A stretch of 64,000 nucleotides of DNA, taken from positions 21,818 through 85,817 of IMG/VR virus record IMGVR_UViG_3300031555_004271; one strand, written 5' to 3'. The translations under genes and the position numbers were made by a program. The notes beneath the pieces are model-generated. The model searched no databases and was not told the origin of the DNA. It saw only the letters and a list, made by a program, of their open reading frames with translations. Numbering within the stretch: position 1 is the stretch's first letter; each line of letters starts with the position of its first letter. The stretch comes from a virus. Lineage: Duplodnaviria; Caudoviricetes. Below are positions 2 to 62,215 of the stretch, piece by piece.

Positions 2-606
2 GCTAATTTCAATAGAGAGGTTTACAATCTATGTCTAGAATTGGTTAAGAAAACCAAACATGGATTGTTAGTAATAGGTATTAGAAACCCGACAATTGCA
101 AGAGGATCTGTACAGGTACTTCGAATTGCTCATGTAAAGGAAGACATTTCAGATTTAACAACGTCAGTTCATAACTGTATCTTAGAGTTATGGGGTGGGG
201 ATTGAAATTTCGTAGTCGTCTGTGTTAGTAATAATACAGAGTATCATTTCAAGAATTGCTGGAAAACCTTAAAAGATGATCAGCATCCAGTTATATACTG
301 GTTCAACGACTAATACCTTAAGAATTTAGGGTTAGTATGAAACATTCTTTATAGAATGAAGATATAGTCTGAACTCTATAGTTATATAGAGTTTGTAAGT
401 CTAATAAACTTACTTCAACATGTAAATAGTACGATGGTGACGTTGTTAACTTCTTCCCACTAATGGATAATGAATACAAGACTGAGTTCTACAGAGTTTT
501 CAGTCCTGATAAGATGTTCATTAGTAACAATACTGGTGCATTTAATGCTAAACTTTCTATTGACCGTGATCAAGTTATTGGTATTCATCAGTTTAATCTA
601 GACTAA
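2..606 (+). CDS. Non-virion RNA polymerase beta' N subunit, 3' part, join(<2..202,430..606); catalytic GGD|YDGD split by group I intron
   Basis: Frame 2 reads ...IGIRNPTIARGS...LELWGGD then TGA; 430-606 reads YDGDVVNFFPLMD...IHQFNLD*. The joined product restores the DxDGD motif and resembles the C-terminus of AR9 nvRNAP beta'N as recalled. Not in the ORF track. Confidence 0.9.
203..429 (+). mobile_element. Group I intron (227 nt, no ORF) in nvRNAP beta'N
   Basis: 5' exon ends in U (gat), intron ends in G (aatag). Core elements aattgctggaaa, gttcaacgacta (301-312), aagatatagtct (359-370). IGS tcgta-gtc pairs with exon gat (P1) and 3' exon tacga (P10). P9 hairpin aactctata/tatagagtt. Confidence 0.92.
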
Positions 607-15319: not shown

Positions 15320-15410
15320 TATTTTGAATCACCTGACTTTCTGTAATTTTATCAATCATCAATAAATGGTATTTTCGCCTAATTACAGAAATCAAAATGA
15401 ATGAAATTTT

Positions 15411-15680
15411 TTAACGTTGATTGTAGATTTTATTCATATCACCATAAGCTTTATCCTGTTCGATCTTAGCCATGGCTTGTGCTTTTGCCTTTTCTTTTTC
15501 TTCTAAGAGTTTAGTTCGTGCTTCACATATTTCTTTTAAAAAAGCAATCTCACTATTAAGAACTTCGTCTAAAGAAATTTGTCCTGCAAACAGGTCTAAA
15601 ACTGAGACAATGAAGTCACTATCAGCTGCTCTTGAAAGTTTATAACTTACGTTGCCGTGCTCGTCCTGTTTATTCGTGTA
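15411..15680 (-). CDS. -1 frame C-terminal extension of tail assembly chaperone (G-T-like frameshift product)
   Basis: 89 open codons (YTNKQDEHG...VLDLFAGQISLDEVL...NQR*) lacking an early ATG/GTG/TTG start; overlaps the end of 15647-17167 at C CTT TTT (15686-15680). Confidence 0.65.
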   Translation of the reverse strand, partial: YTNKQDEHGNVSYKLSRAADSDFIVSVLDLFAGQISLDEVLNSEIAFLKEICEARTKLLEEKEKAKAQAMAKIEQDKAYGDMNKIYNQR

Positions 15681-17167
15681 AAAAGGATTGTTTCGATATC
15701 TACAGGAATGCCAGGTAGCTTAGTCTTACAGTGAGAACAAGTTACATTATGAATTTCATAATCAATCTTATACTTACCTAGCTTCTCCTCAATAGCATTC
15801 TCTAACTGTTCGCCATCCTTATTGGATAACTTCAGTAGGATATTTAACAATCTAGCCTTATCAGCAACCTCATAATAAGTTGCCTTACCAGTATTATATG
15901 TCTGAGCTAAGTCTAGCATGTACATATGAGAGATGAATAACATAGCACTAAATGCATCAGCATACTCTTGTAGAGTCTGCTGATTAGAGATCTTAAGTAG
16001 AGATAGATGATCATGTAGAGAAGGAGTAGATACATCTACGATAATCTTACTATCATTTAACATAACTCTTTCATCCTTATGAACAATAGATGCAGCAACT
16101 AATTCTTCACCAGTCTTAATAGAACCAATGATTTCATCACGCTTCTCATAAGTAGCTCTATCTCTAACTTCTACTAGAGATTGGTTGTTTACAGTTACAG
16201 AGGTAGTTTTACCACACTTACCACAGGTAATATCAAAATCATTGTTATCAATGAAAGTTTGACAATAAATACCAAATAGTAAAGTAGATAGATCATTAAA
16301 GGATGTAATCTTAAGCCAGTTATTGAAATCAGGCTTAGGGATAGACATGGTATGGATCTTGTTATAAACAGTTCTATATAACTTTTCTCTCATCTGGAAA
16401 ATATTACCATCAGAGTTATTAATAGCATTCTTTTCAGCTAGAGTTAAACCAGACATATTTGCTGTATAACCAGACTGACAACAAATAACAGTAAATGTAG
16501 CAACATTATTATTGAAAACTAGATCAATATCCTGTGCTTGCTGAATTGCAGGTTTATTAGTAATAGTAATCTCATTTAGATCAACTGTAATCTTATCCAT
16601 AAATGCTAATTTAGGATTATTACCTCTAGAAGAGACTCTGTTATTAGCATAACTATGATAGATATACTTTTCTTCATTTTTAGATTGAGTTACAGTTTCT
16701 TCATTTAATGCTTCTTCTACAGATTTATCAGAAGATTCCTCTTTAGAAAAATCAATGTCATCTGCATTAAAATCAATACCGAAATCAATATCGTTATGGA
16801 TATAATTGGCTTCTTCTTCAGGTTCTTCATCAAGATTTCCTAATACAGAACTAAGTCCTGCAGATTCATCCATAGGAATATCTGAAATATCTAAAGTAGA
16901 TTTAACATGAGTTTCATTAACTTTAGCATCAATTGAAGTGACATTGGCTGTTATTACACCATTTGCTTCTTTAGTAACCTCGTCTCTTACAGCATTTAGT
17001 TTAGCTAAAATCTGTTCTTTATTACCAGATTTTAGTAGTTCGTCTAAAGACGCTTCTTCAATCTTAGTTTCTCTTGCAGAAAGTGTATTATCATCAATCA
17101 AAATATTGTCAATTTTAGAATTTTCATTTAGAGTATCATTAAACTCTACTGGAATATTTTCAATCAA
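15647..17167 (-). CDS. Baseplate hub / tail assembly chaperone-like protein
   Basis: TTG start with gaggagg RBS; acidic N-region, CGKC and CSHC motifs; adjacent to gp25-like gene. Confidence 0.6.
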   Translation of the reverse strand: MIENIPVEFNDTLNENSKIDNILIDDNTLSARETKIEEASLDELLKSGNKEQILAKLNAVRDEVTKEANGVITANVTSIDAKVNETHVKSTLDISDIPMDESAGLSSVLGNLDEEPEEEANYIHNDIDFGIDFNADDIDFSKEESSDKSVEEALNEETVTQSKNEEKYIYHSYANNRVSSRGNNPKLAFMDKITVDLNEITITNKPAIQQAQDIDLVFNNNVATFTVICCQSGYTANMSGLTLAEKNAINNSDGNIFQMREKLYRTVYNKIHTMSIPKPDFNNWLKITSFNDLSTLLFGIYCQTFIDNNDFDITCGKCGKTTSVTVNNQSLVEVRDRATYEKRDEIIGSIKTGEELVAASIVHKDERVMLNDSKIIVDVSTPSLHDHLSLLKISNQQTLQEYADAFSAMLFISHMYMLDLAQTYNTGKATYYEVADKARLLNILLKLSNKDGEQLENAIEEKLGKYKIDYEIHNVTCSHCKTKLPGIPVDIETILFTRINRTSTAT

Positions 17168-25931: not shown

Positions 25932-27667
25932 TTAATCTCTAGTTAGAGTGTATAATGTCTGAATACCCTCATTACGAAGAACTCTAGTAGTTTTACCTGT
26001 AACGTCTAGTAGGTATTTAGATGAGTTAATCAACTTTTCACATTCAGCATTTGCTTCTTGTGAGTAGACAGATCTTAGTGAAACCGTGTCACCGTCAAAC
26101 AATAATCTTATGCTTTAGAATTGTTAATTCTAAAATGCTTTGTATTTCAATACAAAGATGAGACTATATCTTTATATTCTCATTTTCACTATACTTATAG
26201 TGTAAATTAGTCGTTGAACTAGTATAATTCTAGCTGCTGATTATCCTTTAGGATTTTCCAGCAATTAAAGAACTTTATAGCGAACTTTTATGGTTAATCC
26301 GCTCCCAATGCTTCCAACATGGTATTATGAGGTATAATGGTGTCAATATAGTTGATATTTTCATCTATAACAGGACTATCCTCACTCCTAGTAATTACAG
26401 GATACTCATCATAGTATTTATTGGCAATCTCAATCTGTTGAGTCTTATAAGTAGTCATTATCTTGATTCTACTAGGGTAAATACTTTGATAGTTTTCAAT
26501 AGGAAATCGAGTAACATATACATGTTTATCTTTACATACTCTAGTAGCGACAATATAGATAAGATCTAGTAGAGTAAACTGTCTTTTAAGCTCGTCTTGG
26601 AATAGATTTAATGGAGTATCTTTTACACTACCATCATCCATCTTAACAGGAACTAAAATAGGGTCTAGTCTGTTATCAGGAGATTTGATGTAAAGATTCA
26701 ACATTCCCTTGATCTTCTCAGTTGTAAACTTGGACATTGGATTCACCAGTGTATAGTACTTTCCATTAGCAGCTTTAAGTTCACGTACTGAAGCAAAAGT
26801 TTCTCTAGCAAAATTATCAATCTCATATTGGAAGAAAGGATAGAAAAGGTTACATAAATGGGATAAAGGAATACCAGTATATGTAAACTTTACTAACTGA
26901 TCTGCAGGTTTATTGGAATTAACACGACCTGCTGAGATAACACCTCTAGTACTATAGTCCACTGTCTTGCCGAGCAGACTATTCTTGAGAAGTCCACTCT
27001 TACCCTTAATATAGCTAGTCAAGTATTCATAAATCTCAACTAATTGTTTCTGTAATCTACTTTCAGTAATATGACCCATAAAATCAAAGTCACTATTAGA
27101 ACTAGCTAGGGAAATTAGATTAGCATACATTTTGTTAATCTCATCTTCAGAAACTTTACCATGGTCTAATTTCTGTATATTAGAATCTCGGTAGGATGCA
27201 GGAATTACCAACCAGTACTTGACAAAGATCTCATCAATATCTAACTTGTTAAGTAAGTCTATAGTTCTATCACGTTCACCAGATCCAGATTTTTTGAACT
27301 TTAGTTTCTTAAAGTTGTCATACAACCAATTAATACCAGTATTACCATTTACATTGTCGGCAACTAACTCGCCTTTCTCATTAATTGAGAAATAACCACT
27401 ACCATCAATGACTCTGACAAAGTTTCTATTCATCTTAGTAAGTCTCTGGTATAATAAAGGATGTAGAAAATGTCCTTTTAAATCTATATATCCGAATAAG
27501 GTTCTTCTATCATAACTACCAACTTGACCAAAGATTCTATAAGAAAGTAGACCGTCATCAGTAGGATACCATCCTTGATCGAATCTAATTGGATTAGTAA
27601 CTTCCTGTAAATTGTTTACTTTTATGAATTTTTCTAGGTTACAAATATCTATCTTCAAAGGAAACAT
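25932..27667 (-). CDS. Virion RNA polymerase beta' N subunit, complement(join(25932..26099,26297..27667)); LGAD|FDGD split by group I intron
   Basis: DGLLSYRIFG, GYIDL, LLGKTVDYSTRGVI and VTRFP motifs; exon 2 FDGDTVSLRSV...TLTRD* restores the catalytic motif. Assigned to the virion enzyme because the 2-606 copy matches the non-virion one. Confidence 0.88.
26100..26296 (-). mobile_element. Group I intron (197 nt, no ORF) in vRNAP beta'N
   Basis: Exon gcggat pairs with gttcgc (P1); terminal G at 26100; core aattgctggaaa, gttcaacgacta (26208-26219), aagatatagtct (26161-26172). Confidence 0.92.
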
Positions 27668-41710: not shown

Positions 41711-41825
41711 AAATCTGTAATAAAGAATTTTTTAAATATATATTCTAAATTTGTATAGTACGTAAATCTTTCTATGTACTATACAGATAAAACTTTTTTA
41801 CTATTTTTAAAGGAGACTAAACACT

Positions 41826-42854
41826 ATGACTAATCCCACAATTACTAATGAATTAACTAAGAAGATCAAATCTAGTAAGATCTATGGCTTTTTCCATAAC
41901 GATCTGGACGGATATGGATGTGGTAAAGTAGGAGACTGCTTCGTAAATCTTGCAGGCGCAAGCTATCTAACTTACGGAAAAGTAGATAGCGCAATCGATG
42001 AATACTGCAATAAGACATACAAAGAATATGATGGTCTGATTGTAGCAGATCTTAATCTAAGTATGGAAAAGTTGGAAAAGCTTAACAAGCTGGTCGAAGA
42101 AGGTCATATCGTTATGTATTTTGACCATCACTTCAAGTCTTTGGATCAGTTTGATTTCTTTAAGAAGTCCAATATCATCTTCAAGTACGATAAGGATTAT
42201 TGTGCTACTTACATCATGTTCAAGTATTTCATGTCTAATGGTTATACTACAGATGTAAATACTGAAAAGTTCGGTGAGGTTATCACCTTGATTGATTCTT
42301 GGGATATGTATAAGTGGAAGGATCCTAATACTTTTGAAGTAGTTAATGAGAATGCTTATAGTCTCAGTCTCTACTTCAAGAATTTTGGTTTTGTAAAGAC
42401 CATTATGAAGATCGATAACTACATTAACGATAGATTTAACAATCTCTTTAGTAATACTGAAATTTCTATCATTGACTTCCTTAAGAGAGACATCAAACGT
42501 GGAGTCTATGATAGAAACAAGAATCTTGTTGTAATGCCTTATACTTTTGAAGATGAGACAATGGATATTGGTGTTACTTTTGCAGATAAGGATGTTACTG
42601 AAATTGGCACTATGTTGAATGTTCTGAATAAGAATCTTTCTTTCATTGTAGTCGTTGATATGACCCATAAGAGTGTTAATTTCAGAACCATTTTCAATAA
42701 GCCTAATCTTGCAAAGATTGCTGCTGTTTATGGTGGTGGCGGTCATCCCAAGGCGGCTGGTTGTGTATTAACCAATGAAGCTTTCAATGATTTTGTAAGT
42801 AGGACTTCTAATAGAGGTGAATCTTTTATCTCTTTAGAAAAAACTGAAGAGTAA
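41826..42854 (+). CDS. DHH-DHHA1 family phosphoesterase (NrnA/NrnB-like)
   Basis: HNDLDG, VADL, FDHH, GGGGHPKAAG. Confidence 0.88.
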   Translation: MTNPTITNELTKKIKSSKIYGFFHNDLDGYGCGKVGDCFVNLAGASYLTYGKVDSAIDEYCNKTYKEYDGLIVADLNLSMEKLEKLNKLVEEGHIVMYFDHHFKSLDQFDFFKKSNIIFKYDKDYCATYIMFKYFMSNGYTTDVNTEKFGEVITLIDSWDMYKWKDPNTFEVVNENAYSLSLYFKNFGFVKTIMKIDNYINDRFNNLFSNTEISIIDFLKRDIKRGVYDRNKNLVVMPYTFEDETMDIGVTFADKDVTEIGTMLNVLNKNLSFIVVVDMTHKSVNFRTIFNKPNLAKIAAVYGGGGHPKAAGCVLTNEAFNDFVSRTSNRGESFISLEKTEE

Positions 42855-57048: not shown

Positions 57049-57957
57049 TTATTCACCCATCATCAATTTAGTAAACTTTGGACTAAATATAGCTAAAGTA
57101 TTCCATAATGCATGTATAAATACAGAAATGCCAAAACCTAATGTTTTAGATTTTTCATCATCTAGTTTTAAGAATTTTTGTACCTTTTCATTCTTAGCTA
57201 ACCAATGAACTATTGTAGTAGATAAATGCATTAAAACCGCAAAAGTTCTTACTCTTATTGCTTTTAATAAAGGCATTTTGTTTATTTTTGTTAACTGTAA
57301 TACATATGATGTAAATTCATATCCATTAAAAATTACGAAAAATTCTTTCTCAAAATTACCTGATGCTGCAAATTTCTTAGCTAGTTCTTCAGTTAAAGGT
57401 GCAGCAATACATGCAGTAAGTATTGTACCAATTTGTTGACCAGTAATAGTTATAAAAACAATCATGAATACTATTTGTGCCAACATCATCCATAGAAAAC
57501 ATCTTAGACCGTTTTTTAGCTTAGTAACATCATACTTTCCATTTTCTAATTTTTCAGTATCCAAACTTTCAAATAAAAGAGCTTCTAGTTTTTTAAATAA
57601 AGCTTCTAGTTTATGTGAAATTGATTTTGATGTATCTTTTTTAACACCATTAGTTTTTATATCTGAAACTATTGATGATGCAGTGGATTTAACAGCAATT
57701 TTAGCTTTTTGATAATTTCTATCATTATTATTAAAAAGCTTCTTTAAATCTCTATCAATTACATCTTGAATCTTTTCCTTTACATTAAATGATTCCTGTA
57801 ACATATAATCTAAATCCATTGATTCAGATAGTAAATTACAATGCTCAGATAATTGTTGAATTTGTTCAGGAGTTACTAAAACATCAGGAGTTATATAACC
57901 ATTTTCATTTAAGTCTTTAAGGAATATACAATTTTCGTATAAAGAGACGTTATTCAT
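57049..57957 (-). CDS. PrsW-family intramembrane metalloprotease with head-protein-like N-terminal extension
   Basis: APLTEELAK (EExxK), FNGYE (FxxxE), LMHLS and IHALWN motifs within TM helices. Confidence 0.75.
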   Translation of the reverse strand: MNNVSLYENCIFLKDLNENGYITPDVLVTPEQIQQLSEHCNLLSESMDLDYMLQESFNVKEKIQDVIDRDLKKLFNNNDRNYQKAKIAVKSTASSIVSDIKTNGVKKDTSKSISHKLEALFKKLEALLFESLDTEKLENGKYDVTKLKNGLRCFLWMMLAQIVFMIVFITITGQQIGTILTACIAAPLTEELAKKFAASGNFEKEFFVIFNGYEFTSYVLQLTKINKMPLLKAIRVRTFAVLMHLSTTIVHWLAKNEKVQKFLKLDDEKSKTLGFGISVFIHALWNTLAIFSPKFTKLMMGE

Positions 57958-58101
57958 TTTATAAGTTCACCTACTTTTTATAAAATTTTGTATCATTAAT
58001 TTAATGTTTTTATGAAAATCTATATTTTTCTTTTATAAAACTCATAGACAACATTCAATTAATCAGTTTATTACTAAAGGAAAGGAGGAAATTTATAACT
58101 T

Positions 58102-60820
58102 ATGCAAATGGATACTTCCTATATCATAGATACTCAAACTGATAATCTATCCTTTAAGAAGATGTATAAGGTTCTTAAAGCCAAAGGTATAAAAAACAAT
58201 AAGTTCTTTCTAAAACTTTATGATAAAACATTACAAGGTGTGAATCCTAGAGATGAAGCTAATTTAACTAAAGAACAGAAAATTCGTATTTTAGCTGAGA
58301 TTAAACGAAATCCTTGGTACTTCTTAAGAGAGGTTGTTATTCTTAATGTTGCAGGTGGTAAAAAAAGATACGAACTACATCGTGGTAATTTGGCACTTTC
58401 ATGGTGTATGTTTAACAATCTTAATTCAATTATGTTACTACCTCGTCAGCATGGTAAAACAATGTCATCTATATGTAACTATGAATGGTTTTATAGATTC
58501 GGTACATTGAACTCAAACATGCTATTCATGCATAAAGACTTTGGTGGTAGTAAGAACAACCTTAAAATACTTAAAGAAATAGATGAAAATTTACCATCAT
58601 ATCTGAAAACTAAAGATAAAAAAGATATCGATAATCTAGAATACATTACAAATACTACTACTGGTAATACCATTAGAGCATTATCATCTGCTATGTCAGC
58701 TGCAGAATCAGATAAGAGAGGTAGAGGTCTTACTGCACCTTTGGTACTTTGGGACGAGTTCGCTTTCTTAAAATACAACAAAATTGTTTTCCAAGCAGCT
58801 GCACCTGCACAGTCTCAGGCTAGAGTTGAAGCTCGTAAACATAATTCTTTCTATGGTGCTACCATTATTACTACACCTAATAATATAGATAACAATCCTG
58901 AATCAGAGGGTACTTGGTGTAAGACAGAAATGGTAGAAAAAGCATGTAGATTTGATGAATCTATGTATGATTGGACTTTAGAAGAAGTTCAAGAATGTCT
59001 AGATAAGAAATCTGATAATGACTTCCTTTACATTGAATTCTCTTATAAACAACTAGGTCGTGATGAAGCATGGTACAGAGAAAACTGTCGTGCATTGAAT
59101 AATGACTTACTAAAGATCAAACGTGAGATTCTACTAGAATGGACAAAGGCATCTGACGTCTCTGTCTTCTCAGAAGAACAATTAGTTGCAATTGAAAAAC
59201 ATCTTAAGGAACCAGTAGGTAAAATAGTTCTTAATAAATTCTGGACATTAGATCTTTATAGAACTGACATAGATTACAATATACCTTGGGTTGTATCATG
59301 TGACGTTGGTACAGGTCTATCACAAGACTCTTCAGCTATTACTATATTCAATCCATTAACATTTGAGATCATAGGTGAGTTTAGAGAGAATAAGATCAGC
59401 ACAGACGACTTTAAAGACTTTATTTATCAACTTGTAGGATTATATTTCCGTAATTCTATGGTAGTTATAGAAAACAACTCTATTGGTATAGCTATACTTC
59501 AAGCTTTAATGAAAACTGCTATTTCTAGAAATTTGTATTATGAATATAAAGATAGAAAAGCACAAAAAATAGAAAAATCTAAAACTGAAATTGTCCATGT
59601 AAGTAAAAAAGAAAAATTACAGATCTATGGTGTTTCTACTACTAGTTCTTCTCGTGATTTAATGCTCGAAATTTTAAATGATACAGTTAATGATAGCCCT
59701 GAAAAACTTGCTACTCCTAACCTTTATTCAGACATTAAAGGATTGGAACGTGATAATAAGGGTAGAAAATTTTGCTCTTTTCTAAAAAATTTTCTTAATT
59801 GCTGGAAATTCTTATAACGATTATAAGAGAATCAGCAGCTATTAAAAACGTAAAAAAAAAAGAACTCATATTAGAATGAGTTCTTTTATGGGGTTATTAT
59901 GCTTCTTCTTCAGAAGCGGTAGTTTCTTCTTCGGTAACGGTTTCTTCAACGGTTTCTTCTACAGGCGCTTCTTCTGCAGCAGGTTCCTCGGCAATAGGCT
60001 CTTCATAAGTAGTCTCAGTAGCTACCTTTTCAGCCTTCTTGGTCTGGATAATCTTGTCAACCTTCTTGGCACCCTTGACACCACCATAGAAGGATGCACC
60101 GCCAAGAACACCAATGCCGACAGTCTTCAAGATAGTACCGACGACGACCTTTGCTGCAATACCTGCTACAACACTAATACCGATCATAATAATTTACTCC
60201 TTTTATATTGTAAAAAATTTTAGAAGATATTAAACTTTTATCTTCTTTTCTACAATTATAATATATAAATATAAATACTGAAAATACGTTTTTAATAGTT
60301 CAACGACTAAATAGTACATTATGAGTATAATGGAAATAGAAAACTTTTACTATCTTTATAGTAATTGAAGATATAGTCTCGGTCACTATGGATACATAGT
60401 GTATGACATCTTACAAATGTCAAGATAAGGCTGCCAAAAATTGGTCATGGTGTAGGACTTCATGATGATAGTCTATTCTCTTACTTAGTTGGTAGGTATG
60501 CTTTAGCATATGGTACTAATCTATCTAGGTTCCAAATGCCTATTAATGGTAAAACTCCAAAAGATAGAAAATCTAGTATGTATAGAATGTCTCATAATCT
60601 GTCTGAGGTTAATAGAAATTCTGCTAGAGTTAGAGCTAGTAAAGCTAGTAGTTACAATGGATTAGCCAACGATATGATTGAAGAATCTGCTTATTTAGAT
60701 TTAAGAAGGAAGATAGATAGTGGTGGACGTATAGGTGCTTATACTACACTAAGTCAAATTGAAGAATTAAATAGATTTGATAGAAATCAGTCTGCAGGAC
60801 ATGATTTATGGAAAAAATAA
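58102..60820 (+). CDS. terL: Terminase large subunit, join(58102..59763,60434..60820) (exon 2 may start at 60437)
   Basis: LPRQHGKT Walker A, LWDEFAF Walker B, CDVG nuclease Asp; exon 2 supplies KIGHGVGLHDD. Confidence 0.88.
59852..59886 (-). terminator. Terminator of the intron-borne antisense gene
   Basis: aaaagaactcat-loop-atgagttctttt with a long T-run on the minus strand. Confidence 0.8.
59897..60187 (-). CDS. Intron-encoded 96 aa protein: Gly-rich hydrophobic N-terminus, basic linker, acidic tail
   Basis: AAGGAG RBS at 60197-60202, TATATATTATAA motif at ~60256-60269, own terminator; no nuclease motif. Confidence 0.8.
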   Translation of the reverse strand: MIGISVVAGIAAKVVVGTILKTVGIGVLGGASFYGGVKGAKKVDKIIQTKKAEKVATETTYEEPIAEEPAAEEAPVEETVEETVTEEETTASEEEA

Positions 60821-60868: not shown

Positions 60869-62215
60869 TTAATACGTATAATTTTTAGCTGAAAAATGAC
60901 CAACAGATTGGTATCTGCTAAATTCACTCTTAAGTATCTTAGCAGCAGTTGACCAGTCAGTTAATTTCTTTTTATCTGGTGCGTTCTGACCCATAAATCC
61001 AAAATTAGTAGTAAATTCAAGTTCTCCACTATCAAATTTTTCATCTACTTTTTCATAATAGGTTGATATTTCACGAAATGCGTAACTTAAAGATTTATAT
61101 TTAATTATTAAACTTTTAACCTCTTCACTATTACATCTTTTAATTCTTCTTTTTTCATCGTAATAATAATATTCTCTATTTTCTACTATATTTTCTTTAA
61201 TTTCTTTAAATTTACTACTTATAACGTCTCTAATTTTATCTAAACTACGATTATCAATAGCCTTGTTTATATCATCTTTCATATTTTCTAATTCTTTTTC
61301 ATATTTTCTAATTGGTTCCCAATATTTATCTGATTTTTCTCTCTTACTGTCATACCATGTACTAAAAGATTCAATGCCATAGCAAATTTTAAAACAGCCA
61401 GATATAATCTTTTGAATAGCAAGAATACAACCATTGATAATTCTTTGGAAGTAAGTAGCGTTAGCAGTGTATTTAGATTCTTTAAAAACTTGACTTAATT
61501 TAGTTTTAGCTTCAGCTTTAGCAGTTTCTAAAGATTTAATCCAATGTGGACCATAATCAGTAATAATAGTAAATGCATTAATAACATCAATTACTCTAAA
61601 ATCATTACTGGTAAAATTTTTAGAAATATTTGATTCACCTTTTTCATCATTACCGTATTTTCTTATATCATCTAAAATACTTTTAGCTTTTTTGTTATCA
61701 AATTCATCATTTTTTAAAAGCTCTTTCAAATCACTAATAGTACTATTAATTTTCTTTGTAAAATTAGCTGGATCAGATAAAACTAACTTATTCATATAAA
61801 TATTTTCAGTTATATAAATACTTTTTCTACGTTGTTCAGGAGTATTATACTTAGACTGTTTCATCTTTTCAATAACTTCTTTTACATTACTTTCAAGATT
61901 TTCATTTATTTTAAACCTCATTTTAAACTTGCTAATGGTTTTATTAATTGCAATAATGCAATTTTGAATCATAATAACAATTTTATTCCAAATAGCTTTT
62001 AAAGTAGAACCAACATTATTTTTATATTCTTCTTCAGCTAATATCATCATATTACTATCTTCATTTACAATACAATGATGTTCGCATTTAATCATCTTCA
62101 TATCTAGTTCATGAATAGTAGATTGGTATTCTAATAGATACTCATATGATTCATTTACTAGACTATCAAGATTCATAGAATTATCTAAAGTTTTATCTAA
62201 AAACATTTTTATCAC
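60869..62215 (-). CDS. Internal head protein (phiKZ inner-body-like family), paralog of 62325-63992
   Basis: LVNESYE...EH..IVNED...AEE..K...LK.(I/A)WN.I segment shared with the neighbour; late promoter at 62257-62268. Confidence 0.6.
   Translation of the reverse strand: MIKMFLDKTLDNSMNLDSLVNESYEYLLEYQSTIHELDMKMIKCEHHCIVNEDSNMMILAEEEYKNNVGSTLKAIWNKIVIMIQNCIIAINKTISKFKMRFKINENLESNVKEVIEKMKQSKYNTPEQRRKSIYITENIYMNKLVLSDPANFTKKINSTISDLKELLKNDEFDNKKAKSILDDIRKYGNDEKGESNISKNFTSNDFRVIDVINAFTIITDYGPHWIKSLETAKAEAKTKLSQVFKESKYTANATYFQRIINGCILAIQKIISGCFKICYGIESFSTWYDSKREKSDKYWEPIRKYEKELENMKDDINKAIDNRSLDKIRDVISSKFKEIKENIVENREYYYYDEKRRIKRCNSEEVKSLIIKYKSLSYAFREISTYYEKVDEKFDSGELEFTTNFGFMGQNAPDKKKLTDWSTAAKILKSEFSRYQSVGHFSAKNYTY

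What the first reader, a model, noticed from the sequence alone, without database searches (positions are those of the whole stretch)
59764..60433. Terminase group I intron hosts a complete antisense, non-nuclease gene
Seen: the intron core is split by a 434-nt insert (59852-60285) closed by a perfect 13-bp stem at the P6-equivalent position. The insert is a self-contained minus-strand unit: TATATAT-type promoter, AAGGAG RBS, a 96 aa ORF (Gly-rich hydrophobic helix, basic linker, Glu-rich tail; more GC-rich, high-expression codons) and a terminator. Known: ORFs in phage group I introns are almost always sense-strand homing endonucleases. Inference: the intron serves as a neutral landing pad for an early membrane-associated effector. 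Early antisense transcription could also suppress premature terminase expression, and late transcripts must read through the cargo hairpin and loop it out to splice.
Basis: partly seen in the sequence, partly recalled or inferred. Interest (0 to 1): 0.85.

Follow-up and report, generated by a model that had tools for sequence, protein, structure and literature searches.

The report
Backward accessory gene inside terminase intron
A self-splicing-type (group I) intron in the terminase gene of an uncultured AR9-like giant phage carries, in one outer loop, a complete backward-facing gene for a small non-nuclease, probably membrane-bound protein. The same promoter-plus-terminator "shell" holds other genes in other introns of this phage group, so the loop works as a cargo slot.

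Summary
TerL (exon 1 58102-59763; exon 2 from 60431 or 60434 to 60820) is split by a group I intron. Its P6 helix is a perfect 14-bp stem (59839-59852 / 60285-60298) enclosing 432 nt.

The insert is a minus-strand unit:
- an AR9-type early-promoter motif (60267-60256);
- a conserved leader hairpin and an AAGGAG RBS;
- a 96-aa ORF (60187-59897);
- a terminator scored only on the minus strand (59887-59858).

Four diverged alleles in relatives keep the ORF open. dN/dS is about 0.3 and lowest in this frame. Its dS (about 0.7-1.0) matches that of the TerL exons, so it is an old, selected, protein-coding resident.

The protein has a Gly-rich hydrophobic head, a basic linker and an acidic tail. It lacks His, Cys, Asn and Arg and matches no family, so it is not a nuclease.

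Relatives show three other states: no intron, the same intron with a compact P6 and a sense-strand endonuclease gene in P8, and the cassette form. The same shell carries a 51-aa ORF in an RNA-polymerase intron here and a 348-aa Myb-repeat gene in a sister phage's protease intron.

Expression, splicing and function are untested. This scan noted similar cassettes before on other giant-phage DNA (e1-5379637, e1-5459962).

The parts
58050..58061 (+). AR9-type late-promoter motif AACA-(6N)-TA, 41 nt upstream of the TerL start codon
   Evidence: Sequence read; the consensus AACA-(6N)-TA/G comes from PMC5312081. Motif match only.
58102..59763 (+). Terminase large subunit, exon 1 (554 codons). The frame runs on into the intron to a TAA at 59815-59817.
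   Evidence: phrog_32359 and phrog_2 terminase large subunit, E 2e-67 and 1e-41. 45% identity to intron-less Goe21 TerL up to residue 547.
59764..60430 (+). Group I intron (IA2-like), 667 nt, or 670 nt if the 3' splice site is G60433
   Evidence: Split Rfam Intron_gpI matches. Core aligned to sister introns. 18 of 24 pairs in the 3' domain show compensatory changes. Intron-less relatives join exactly here.
59758..59779 (+). P1: exon AAGGGU (59758-59763) pairs with the guide GCUCUU (59774-59779), with U59763-G59774 at the splice site
   Evidence: Covariation: relatives with exon AAAGGU have the guide GCUUUU (L014, L026).
59800..59837 (+). P4 (59800-59805 / 59832-59837) enclosing the P5 hairpin (59809-59817 / 59821-59829)
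   Evidence: MFE fold. P5 differs in sequence but stays paired across sister introns.
59839..59852 (+). P6 5' arm (CTATTAAAAACGTA)
   Evidence: 14-nt perfect inverted repeat. Occupies the P6 position of compact introns.
59858..59887 (-). Intrinsic terminator of the cargo gene: 12-bp stem followed by a T-run on the minus strand
   Evidence: Flagged on the minus strand only. The hairpin is kept with changed stem sequence in L015 and L026.
59897..60187 (-). Cargo gene, 96 aa: Gly-rich hydrophobic residues 1-40, basic linker 41-56, acidic tail 57-96
   Evidence: ORF. Four alleles with in-frame indels; omega 0.28-0.32, lowest of the six frames. Hydropathy. No family match.
60197..60202 (-). Ribosome-binding site AAGGAG, 9 nt before the ATG
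   Evidence: Sequence; conserved in L015, L026 and L027.
60222..60246 (-). Conserved hairpin in the 5' leader (GAAGATA...TATCTTC)
   Evidence: Sequence; conserved in relatives; seen in the fold.
60250..60270 (-). Early-promoter-like motif ATTTATATATTAT-(6N)-A/G; predicted start near 60251-60250. It overlaps a sigma-70-like -35/-10 pair (60284..60255).
   Evidence: AR9 early consensus AAATATATATTAT-(6N)-G from PMC5312081. 7 of 8 near-matches in the genome precede a same-strand ORF, 6 of them with a visible Shine-Dalgarno sequence.
60285..60298 (+). P6 3' arm (TACGTTTTTAATAG)
60299..60430 (+). Intron 3' domain: J6/7; P7 (GACU 60305-60308 / AGUC 60375-60378); P7.1 (60317-60332); P3' (60338-60343); P8 (60347-60364); P9 (60384-60401); P9.1 (60405-60421); terminal G at 60430 or 60433
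   Evidence: Rfam match; RNAalifold on nine sister introns; fold.
60431..60820 (+). Terminase large subunit, exon 2. It starts Leu-Pro-Lys-Ile-Gly-His, or Pro-Lys-... if spliced after G60433.
   Evidence: Aligns to Goe21 residues 547-608 and to relatives. The frame is open from 60407.

Best explanation
The large terminase gene of this AR9/PBS1-like giant phage is interrupted, just before a conserved Gly-His-Asp-Asp motif, by an IA2-like group I intron. The P6 loop of the intron has become a slot for an autonomous, moron-like expression cassette that faces backwards.

Shown by sequence and comparison:
- The cassette consists of an early-type promoter motif, a leader hairpin, an RBS, a 96-codon ORF and a minus-strand-specific terminator.
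- It lies entirely between the two arms of a 14-bp P6 stem.
- It has co-diverged with the phage and is under purifying selection as a protein.
- It is not a nuclease.

Inferred:
- Early in infection the virion RNA polymerase, and possibly host sigma-A polymerase, makes an mRNA of about 400 nt that ends inside the loop.
- That mRNA yields an abundant small protein whose Gly-rich hydrophobic head sits in the membrane, with the basic linker and acidic tail in the cytoplasm. It would act as an accessory early function such as superinfection exclusion or host-envelope takeover.
- Late in infection the non-virion polymerase reads from the AACA-type promoter through the cassette. On the sense strand the hairpin is followed by only UUUUAU.
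- The P6 stem then brings the two halves of the ribozyme together, the intron splices, and the cargo-complementary RNA leaves with it. Mature terminase mRNA therefore shares no sequence with the cargo mRNA.

The intron gives the cargo a harmless site inside an essential gene. The cargo gives an intron that lacks an endonuclease gene a reason to be kept.
For: Intron:
- Split Rfam matches.
- Core homology to sister introns, one of which is above Rfam's threshold.
- P1 covariation: AAGGGU/GCUCUU against AAAGGU/GCUUUU.
- 18 of 24 pairs in the 3' domain have compensatory changes.
- The MFE fold keeps the core helices and closes the insert with P6.
- Intron-less relatives (L018, L019, L021, Goe21) join the exons at this point.

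Gene:
- RBS, ATG, promoter motif and strand-specific terminator.
- Only two homologue clusters among 1.84 billion representative proteins, all in the same intron context.
- Omega 0.28-0.32 with dS 0.72-1.05, the lowest of the six frames.
- TerL exon dS 0.83-0.89, so the cassette is as old as the divergence of these phages.
- Codon bias at the top of the genome's range.

Promoter:
- Match to the experimentally defined AR9 early consensus.
- 7 of 8 near-matches precede same-strand ORFs, 6 of them with a visible Shine-Dalgarno sequence.
- TerL carries the AR9 late motif.

Not a nuclease:
- No Pfam, PHROG, NCBIfam, PADLOC or PDB match.
- No His, Cys, Asn or Arg.
- Modelled as two helices plus a disordered tail.

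Slot idea:
- L014 has the same intron with a compact P6 and a sense endonuclease gene in P8.
- Intron C of this genome and a protease-gene intron of sister phage G001 carry the same shell with unrelated ORFs.
- Orthologues of intron C in G001 and G002 have a compact P6.
Against:
- As a bare motif the promoter word is not enriched over shuffles in this AT-rich DNA. The predicted +1 is A, not the G of AR9, and 2 of 13 consensus positions differ; in AR9 a single mismatch can inactivate such a promoter.
- The P6 stem is invariant among alleles, so it shows no covariation within this intron.
- This copy has a 6-nt insertion (CTGCCA) between the homologous terminal G and the P10-pairing AAAAU. The 3' splice site is therefore uncertain and splicing could be less efficient.
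- A long sense-strand shadow frame is also open in all alleles, although its omega is higher.
- Membrane location rests on hydropathy and a model with pLDDT 50.
- The protein's function is a guess.
Confidence: 0.72

Rival explanations
1. The cargo is a membrane-damaging small toxin, similar to a type I toxin, a holin or a leaderless bacteriocin. Its expression would be checked by the complementary terminase pre-mRNA. The intron plus cassette would then behave as an addiction or lysis-timing module rather than carrying a benign accessory gene.
For: - Architecture of a Gly-rich hydrophobic head followed by charged residues.
- Sub-threshold resemblance of the conserved head to the GatB leaderless bacteriocin family (E 0.08, 13 bits against a cut-off of 35) and to TatA (E 0.029).
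- A built-in antisense partner, because late TerL transcription crosses the gene.
Against: - All family matches are far below their cut-offs.
- The protein is 85-99 aa with a long acidic tail, unlike typical type I toxins of 30-60 aa.
- Strong codon optimisation and an early promoter suggest abundant expression, which is odd for a toxin.
- No PADLOC match.
Confidence: 0.12
2. The main role of the cassette is regulatory. Early convergent transcription across the intron loop, or the resulting RNA duplex, would delay or tune terminase splicing and expression. The small protein would be secondary.
For: - Opposite orientation inside a late gene, with early-type and late-type promoter motifs on the two strands.
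Against: - The ORF is under purifying selection at the protein level in its own frame. Its RBS and start codon are conserved.
- The terminator confines the antisense RNA to the loop, so mature TerL mRNA is not targeted.
- Shells with unrelated ORFs sit in genes of different timing classes.
Confidence: 0.1
3. The ORF is a decayed remnant of a homing-endonuclease gene or a chance open frame, and the insert is only an extended P6 RNA.
For: P6 is a classic site for intron endonuclease genes. About 14 P6 inserts in the wider intron family carry sense-strand HNH-type ORFs.
Against: - The ORF is on the opposite strand with its own RBS, promoter motif and terminator.
- No similarity to any nuclease family, and no His, Cys, Asn or Arg.
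- Omega about 0.3, in-frame indels and four open alleles.
Confidence: 0.03
4. The intervening sequence does not splice, and the two terminase parts are made and used as separate polypeptides.
For: - The exon 1 frame ends 18 codons into the intron.
- The terminal-G/P10 geometry is disturbed by a 6-nt insertion.
- No Rfam match above threshold.
Against: - Exon 2 has no RBS or start codon at the junction; its first ATG lies 33 codons downstream at 60536.
- The ribozyme core is 87-89% conserved against dS of about 0.85 in the exons, with covarying helices and a covarying P1.
- Relatives without the intron have one continuous gene.
Confidence: 0.03

Closest known systems
Bacillus phage AR9 g190 (RefSeq BI022_gp189): HNH homing-endonuclease gene with its own early promoter inside a group I intron of the late virion-RNAP gene g189 (Lavysh et al. 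2017, PMC5312081)
   Same: Related giant-phage lineage. An independently transcribed early gene, with the same type of early promoter motif, sits inside a group I intron of a late gene.
   Different: The AR9 gene is on the sense strand and encodes a homing endonuclease. Here the gene is antisense, is not a nuclease, and is bounded by its own terminator.
Mycobacteriophage LittleE capsid-gene intron with endonuclease gene 14 on the bottom strand (Pope et al. 2013, PMC3706429)
   Same: A phage structural-gene intron carrying an ORF on the opposite strand; efficient splicing was shown by RT-PCR.
   Different: That cargo is a putative homing endonuclease, the host is high-GC, and no shared shell or cargo swapping was described.
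Didymium iridis Dir.S956-2 nuclear rDNA group I intron with an antisense homing-endonuclease gene (reviewed in PMC3679873)
   Same: An ORF in a peripheral helix of a group I intron, expressed from the antisense strand.
   Different: It is eukaryotic and nucleolar, and the cargo is an endonuclease.
Phage T4 td intron with the I-TevI ORF looped out of P6 and expressed from its own promoters (textbook knowledge, not checked here)
   Same: An ORF looped out of P6, with expression independent of the host gene.
   Different: Sense strand, and a GIY-YIG homing endonuclease.
IStrons such as CdISt1 of Clostridioides difficile (Hausner et al. 2014, PMC3984707)
   Same: A bacterial IA2 group I intron carrying non-homing-endonuclease cargo.
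   Different: The cargo is an IS605-type transposase module at the 3' end, on the sense strand, and serves the element's own mobility.
Phage 'morons' and single-gene portable transcription units (the concept from own knowledge; phiKZ examples in PMC10914365)
   Same: A promoter-gene-terminator unit with atypical composition, embedded on the opposite strand and present or absent among relatives.
   Different: Morons sit between genes. This unit sits inside a ribozyme loop within an essential gene.

Membership tests
Group I intron (Rfam RF00028, IA2-like) | Covariance-model match at the curated threshold | tested here: inconclusive
   Two partial matches (27.8 and 15.7-15.8 bits) flank the 432-nt insert; none reaches 50 bits. 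A compact sister intron in the same genome scores 54.9 bits and aligns along the whole core.
Group I intron (Rfam RF00028, IA2-like) | 5' exon ends in U paired to G of an internal guide sequence (P1) | tested here: met
   AAGGGU (59758-59763) pairs with GCUCUU (59774-59779). Relatives show the compensatory change AAAGGU/GCUUUU.
Group I intron (Rfam RF00028, IA2-like) | Conserved core helices P3-P9 supported by covariation | tested here: met
   P4, P5, P6, P7.1, P8 and P9 appear in the MFE fold. P7, P7.1, P8 and P9 have 18 of 24 pairs with compensatory changes across nine introns. P3 is an 11-nt complement (pair I22).
Group I intron (Rfam RF00028, IA2-like) | Intron ends in G, and exon ligation restores the host reading frame | tested here: met
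   G60430 (by homology) or G60433; both are in frame. They add 2 or 1 residues compared with intron-less relatives. The exact site is unresolved.
Group I intron (Rfam RF00028, IA2-like) | Self-splicing activity | not testable with these tools
Homing endonucleases (HNH, GIY-YIG, LAGLIDADG, His-Cys box, PD-(D/E)xK, EDxHD) | Profile or sequence similarity to a nuclease family | tested here: not met
   No match in Pfam, PHROGs, NCBIfam, PADLOC or PDB sequences for any allele. The P8 ORF of L014 does match phrog_559 'HNH endonuclease', E 1.5e-39.
Homing endonucleases (HNH, GIY-YIG, LAGLIDADG, His-Cys box, PD-(D/E)xK, EDxHD) | Catalytic residues and a globular fold | tested here: not met
   The 96-aa protein has no His, Cys, Asn or Arg. 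The invariant columns are Gly, Ala, Lys, Thr and similar. The model is two helices plus a disordered tail (low confidence).
Phage moron (autonomous accessory transcription unit) | Own promoter and own terminator flanking a single gene | tested here: met
   Promoter motif, sigma-70-like hexamers and a minus-strand terminator are present. These are sequence matches, not activity.
Phage moron (autonomous accessory transcription unit) | Atypical composition and presence/absence among close relatives | tested here: met
   GC 0.47 against about 0.30, and GC3 2.5 sd above the genome mean. The unit is absent from L014 (compact P6) and from the intron-less L018, L019 and L021.
AR9-type early (virion RNAP) promoter | AAATATATATTAT-(6N)-G(+1) | tested here: inconclusive
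   This site reads ATTTATATATTAT-AATTGT-A-G: 11 of 13 positions match, and the G lies one base late. The genome's own near-matches vary at the same positions, and 7 of 8 precede ORFs. The bare motif is not enriched over shuffles.
GatB/garvicin KS-type leaderless bacteriocins, TatA, type I toxins | Family profile match above the cut-off | tested here: not met
   Best scores are 13 bits (cut-off 35) and 14.7 bits (cut-off 115), each for one allele only.

The most novel reading that the evidence does not exclude
The P6 insert may be a portable 'expression shell'. It consists of inverted-repeat arms (AAAAACGTA / TACGTTTTT) that double as the P6 extension, an outward-facing terminator at one end and an early promoter at the other. 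This shell would move between group I introns of AR9-like giant phages and exchange its ORF. Cargo seen so far: the 96-aa membrane-type protein, a 51-aa peptide and a 348-aa Myb-repeat protein. By sitting in introns of essential genes, the cargo could spread between co-infecting phages through intron homing driven by endonucleases supplied in trans by sister introns such as the L014 form. Self-splicing introns would then be vehicles for accessory-gene exchange.
Probability: 0.35. Interest if true: 0.85.

Novelty: new variant of a known kind. Interest (0 to 1): 0.66.

Why it matters
Bacterial and phage group I introns are treated as selfish RNA plus a homing-endonuclease gene. The review I searched (PMC3984707) names no antisense or accessory cargo apart from IStrons.

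Here an intron without an endonuclease gene has kept a selected, non-nuclease, backward-facing gene for as long as the host phages have been diverging. The same shell carries other genes in other introns. This suggests two things:
- A route by which introns become useful to their phage and so escape the usual cycle of gain, decay and loss.
- A hidden place where giant-phage accessory genes reside. Gene callers may miss or misread them, because they lie inside a 'split' essential gene.

It also offers a natural test of how large a foreign, transcribed insert a ribozyme loop tolerates.

Tried and rejected
- Word-based homologue search for the 96-aa protein found only itself. tblastn against 50,697 phage records found nothing.
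- The ESM Atlas gave only low-score, unrelated neighbours.
- The exhaustive HMMER search gave two true homologue clusters. It also gave one 1399-aa hit (P0004) with 8 short stretches at 27% identity; I did not inspect it and set it aside as probably compositional.
- The PDB profile search gave only E > 0.05 hits to designed proteins.
- AlphaFold with a 4-sequence alignment gave pLDDT 50. I therefore ran no fold search, because matches to a low-confidence model mean nothing.
- The bare promoter words are not enriched over dinucleotide shuffles. The case for a promoter rests on context and on the AR9 consensus.
- I checked whether AR9's four TerL introns include this site. They do not: they lie at Goe21 residues of about 201-257, not 547.
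- I considered the sense-strand 115-aa ORF (59876-60223) as the real gene and rejected it. It has no RBS, its start codon lies inside the terminator stem, and no sense-strand frame has an omega as low as the minus-strand ORF frame.
- I considered recent horizontal acquisition as the cause of the high GC. The gene's dS equals that of the TerL exons and no outside homologue exists, so selection on codon use is more likely.
- No complex-prediction job was run.
Full report
**Source and setting.** The window is bases 21818-85817 of an 85.8-kb IMG/VR virus fragment estimated at 33% complete. Its terminase DNA is similar to Bacillus phages PBS1, AR9 and Goe21 and to staphylococcal giant phages. The minus-strand gene upstream (57049-57957) and the one downstream (60869-62215) have no PHROG match.

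**The host gene.** ORF 58102-59817 matches terminase large-subunit families (phrog_32359 at E 2e-67, phrog_2 at E 1e-41). tblastn with the intron-less Goe21 TerL (L010:3971-5941) aligns residues 3-547 to 58129-59766. It aligns residues 547-608 to 60437 onward, in another frame. The break lies just before a conserved Gly-His-Asp-Asp motif. AR9's own TerL is annotated as five joined pieces, but those introns lie at Goe21 residues of about 201-257, not here.

**The intron.**
- Rfam finds nothing at gathering score in the window.
- In E-value mode, Intron_gpI matches 60301-60401 (27.8 bits, E 7e-5, covering P8, the GAAGAUAUAGUCU element and P9) and 59800-59883 (15.7 bits).
- The genome holds at least three more introns of the same family. 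One of them scores 54.9 bits, above threshold.
- Alignment with the inserts removed shows a shared core: AATTGCTGG-[P5]-AATCAGCAGC-[P6]-GTTCAACGACTAA-[P7.1]-[P3']-[P8]-AAGATATAGTCT-[P9].
- RNAalifold on nine 3' halves recovers P7, P7.1, P8 and P9. Of 24 pairs, 18 show compensatory changes.
- P1 pairs exon AAGGGU (59758-59763) with GCUCUU (59774-59779), with U59763-G59774 at the splice site. Relatives whose exon reads AAAGGU have GCUUUU.
- At the 3' end, L015 and L014 read ...GATAAAG|AAAATC and ...GATAACG|AAAATT. This copy reads GATAAGG followed by CTGCCA and then AAAAATT.
- By homology the terminal G is therefore 60430, which adds Leu-Pro.
- The predicted P10 pairs AUUUU (59769-59773) with AAAAU (60437-60441). 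It fits the ancestral Gly|Lys junction, but no G precedes that point. The exact site needs RNA data.

**The P6 insert.**
- A 14-bp perfect inverted repeat (59839-59852 / 60285-60298) encloses 432 nt.
- Compact sister introns have a 4-7-bp hairpin at this position.
- The MFE fold of the whole intron closes the insert with this stem (15 pairs counting a G-U) and keeps P4, P5, P7.1, P8 and P9 (z = -5 against shuffles).

**The cassette, read on the minus strand.**
- Promoter motif: TATATATTATAA at 60267-60256, within ATTTATATATTAT-AATTGT-A-G.
- A leader hairpin (60246-60222) and AAGGAG (60202-60197).
- ATG at 60187, 96 codons, and TAA ending at 59897.
- A 12-bp hairpin followed by a T-run (59887-59858).
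- The terminator scan flags this hairpin only on the minus strand. On the plus strand the stem is followed by TTTTAT.
- A sigma-70-like TTTTCA-18-TATAAT overlaps the motif.

**How good is the promoter call?**
- The AR9 early consensus, defined by dRNA-seq and primer extension, is AAATATATATTAT-(6N)-G. The late consensus is AACA-(6N)-TA/G (PMC5312081).
- In the 85.8-kb genome, TATATATTATAA with at most one mismatch occurs 8 times. Seven of these are followed within 40-300 nt by a same-strand ORF, six of them with a visible Shine-Dalgarno sequence.
- As a bare word it is not enriched over shuffles in this AT-rich DNA. The promoter call is therefore by context and analogy.
- TerL itself has AACA-ttcaat-TA at 58050-58061.
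- In AR9 the gene next to the early g120 appears only from 20 min. By the RefSeq layout this gene is the terminase.

**Is the ORF a gene?**
- An exhaustive HMMER search of 1.84 billion representatives finds only two homologue clusters: P0002 (99 aa, 60% identity) and P0003 (85 aa, 56%). It also finds one uninspected 1399-aa hit made of 8 short stretches at 27% identity.
- Every contig that encodes these proteins shows the same context, with opposite-strand terminase pieces on both sides.
- There are four alleles: this one, L026, L015-L017 and L027/L028. All are open, their indels are in frame, and the RBS, the promoter motif and a terminator hairpin at the same place (stem sequence changed) are kept.
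- Nei-Gojobori estimates over the first 48 codons give omega 0.28-0.32 at dS 0.72-1.05. The other five frames give 0.42-2.9.
- A long sense-strand shadow frame is also open in every allele. It has no RBS and higher omega.
- TerL exons between the same phages have dS 0.83-0.89 and omega of about 0.1. The ribozyme core is 87-89% identical and the ORF 62% at the nucleotide level.
- The cassette has therefore been in this intron for the whole divergence of these lineages and is maintained as a protein.

**The protein.**
- Residues 1-40 contain 10 Gly, 3 Lys and no acidic residues. Kyte-Doolittle 19-residue means are up to 2.1.
- Residues 41-56 have 6 Lys and 2 acidic residues. Residues 57-96 have 17 Asp/Glu and no basic residue.
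- The invariant columns lie in the head: A-K-x-V-x-G-T-I-L-K-T-x-G-x-G-x-L-x-G-A-S-x-Y-x-G-x-K-G.
- The acidic tail varies in length and sequence. Omega is about 1.2-1.4 between L015 and L027.
- AlphaFold gives helix 4-28, a Gly-rich loop, helix 37-59 and a disordered tail, at pLDDT 50.
- There is no significant match in Pfam, PHROGs, NCBIfam, PADLOC or PDB. The best sub-threshold hints are a GatB leaderless bacteriocin model and TatA; these are leads only.
- The protein has no His, Cys, Asn or Arg, so none of the homing-endonuclease chemistries fits.
- Codon use: GC3 is 0.375 against a genome mean of 0.213 +/- 0.064. All 9 Lys codons are AAG, against 37% genome-wide, and there are no ATA, GGA or ACA codons.
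- This is at the top of the genome's range. The one real gene I checked at that level is a DHH phosphoesterase gene (41826-42854) that follows a one-mismatch copy of the motif.
- With no outside homologue and a dS equal to that of the exons, I read the bias as selection for expression rather than recent import.

**The natural series in relatives.**
- L018, L019 and L021 (78% TerL identity) have no intron here.
- L014 (89%) has the same intron with a compact P6 (CATAGTA-TT-TACTATG). It also has a 390-aa sense-strand ORF in the P8 loop that matches phrog_559 'HNH endonuclease' (E 1.5e-39) and phrog_9084 'homing endonuclease'.
- L015-L017 (87%), L026, L027 and L028 have the P6 cassette and a short P8.
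- I saw no copy with both inserts and no copy with neither.

**The shell recurs.**
- Intron C of this genome (G000:C1 about 15345-15850, in an RNA-polymerase subunit gene, phrog_2962) has its P6 opened by about 300 nt between CTTATATAAAATCGTAAA and TTTACGGTTTTATATAAG.
- Its insert has an A-run plus hairpin at the left end, a minus-strand 51-aa ORF with a GGAG RBS, and a 23-nt promoter stretch shared with the TerL cassette except at one position, AATTATAATATATA(G/A)ATATAAA.
- Orthologues of intron C in the complete sister genomes G001 and G002 have a compact P6, CTTAT-TT-ATAAG.
- A pattern built from the promoter plus the 3' arm hits only these two sites in this genome and two sites in G001. 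One is the G001 TerL intron. The other is an intron in the G001 prohead protease gene (Peptidase_S77).
- In that protease intron the arms CTTAAAAACGTA / TACGTTTTTAAG enclose a terminator and an antisense 348-aa ORF. The ORF is built of Myb-like DNA-binding repeats (PF00249, E 4e-25).
- So three introns and three unrelated cargos share one shell.

**How unusual is this?** I scanned IMG/VR for the P4-P5-P4' signature and examined 132 matches. Of the 91 where the J6/7 motif was found, 71 have a P6 of 13-46 nt. About 14 have real P6 inserts, and nearly all of these are sense-strand HNH-type ORFs. None has an antisense cassette.

**Published precedents.**
- An early-promoter-driven but sense-strand HNH gene in an AR9 intron.
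- An antisense endonuclease gene in the LittleE capsid intron, which splices efficiently.
- Antisense endonuclease genes in Didymium rDNA introns.
- IStrons.
- I found no report of an antisense, non-nuclease, promoter-and-terminator-equipped gene in a phage group I intron. The search covers open-access text only.
- This scan has unverified notes of similar cassettes in other giant-phage DNA, and one for intron C of this genome.

**Mechanism.** Shown by sequence: the cassette is self-contained, strand-specific and confined to the P6 loop, and the flanking ribozyme is intact and conserved. The timing, the splicing route and the role of the protein are inferred, as laid out under Best explanation. 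One further inference: even if the two RNAs paired, or the duplex were cut, the break would fall in a loop. The two ribozyme halves could stay joined through P6 and the tertiary contacts.

**Verdict.** This is a new variant of a known kind: a group I intron with an ORF in P6, but with antisense, non-nuclease, moron-like cargo in a shell that recurs.

Noticed in passing
G000:C1:15390-15728 (outside the window; L002:1209-1547): A second group I intron of this genome, in an RNA-polymerase subunit gene, has its P6 opened by an antisense cassette with the same promoter stretch and similar arms. Its cargo is an unrelated 51-aa ORF (L002:1272-1427, minus strand) with no family match. Orthologous introns in sister genomes G001 and G002 have a compact P6.
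   Followed up: partly
L156:1333-2760 (G001:C1 about 238222-239650): In a complete 319-kb sister phage, an intron in the prohead protease gene (Peptidase_S77) carries the same shell in P6. The antisense cargo is a 348-aa protein made of about six Myb-like DNA-binding repeats (L156:1577-2623).
   Followed up: partly
L014:3513-4685: The closest TerL relative has the same intron with a compact P6 but a 390-aa sense-strand HNH-type homing-endonuclease ORF in the P8 loop. L014 also has a second TerL intron near residue 206-217.
   Followed up: partly
window 59764-59795: The first 10 nt of the intron (AGAAAAUUUU) nearly repeat the P3' strand (AGAAAACUUUU, 60338-60348). They can pair with the P3 5' strand (59786-59795), and the MFE fold chooses this hairpin. 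It competes with both P1 and P3 and lies in the stretch that ribosomes would cross before the in-frame stop at 59815-59817. It may be a folding or translation-coupled switch.
   Followed up: no
window 60431-60436: A 6-nt in-frame insertion (CTGCCA, Leu-Pro) relative to L014 and L015 lies between the homologous terminal G and the P10-pairing AAAAU. It leaves the 3' splice site ambiguous.
   Followed up: partly
window 41737-42854: A DHH/DHHA1 phosphoesterase gene (41826-42854) follows a one-mismatch copy of the early-promoter word and a strong RBS. Its GC3 (0.357) is among the highest of the real genes in this genome, like the intron cargo.
   Followed up: partly
window 59876-60223 (+): A 115-aa sense-strand 'shadow' ORF overlaps the cargo gene, and a long sense frame stays open in all four alleles. 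It has no RBS and a higher dN/dS than the minus-strand frame.
   Followed up: yes
window 171-391 and 26138-26345: Two compact, ORF-less group I introns of the same family lie in the window (Rfam 54.9 and 46.2 bits). Earlier notes of this scan place them in the catalytic motifs of the two RNA polymerases.
   Followed up: no
L009 (AR9 NC_031039.1 94802-98003): AR9's terminase gene is annotated as five joined pieces, with a 40-aa sense ORF (gp121) inside one intron. None of its introns is at the site used here.
   Followed up: partly
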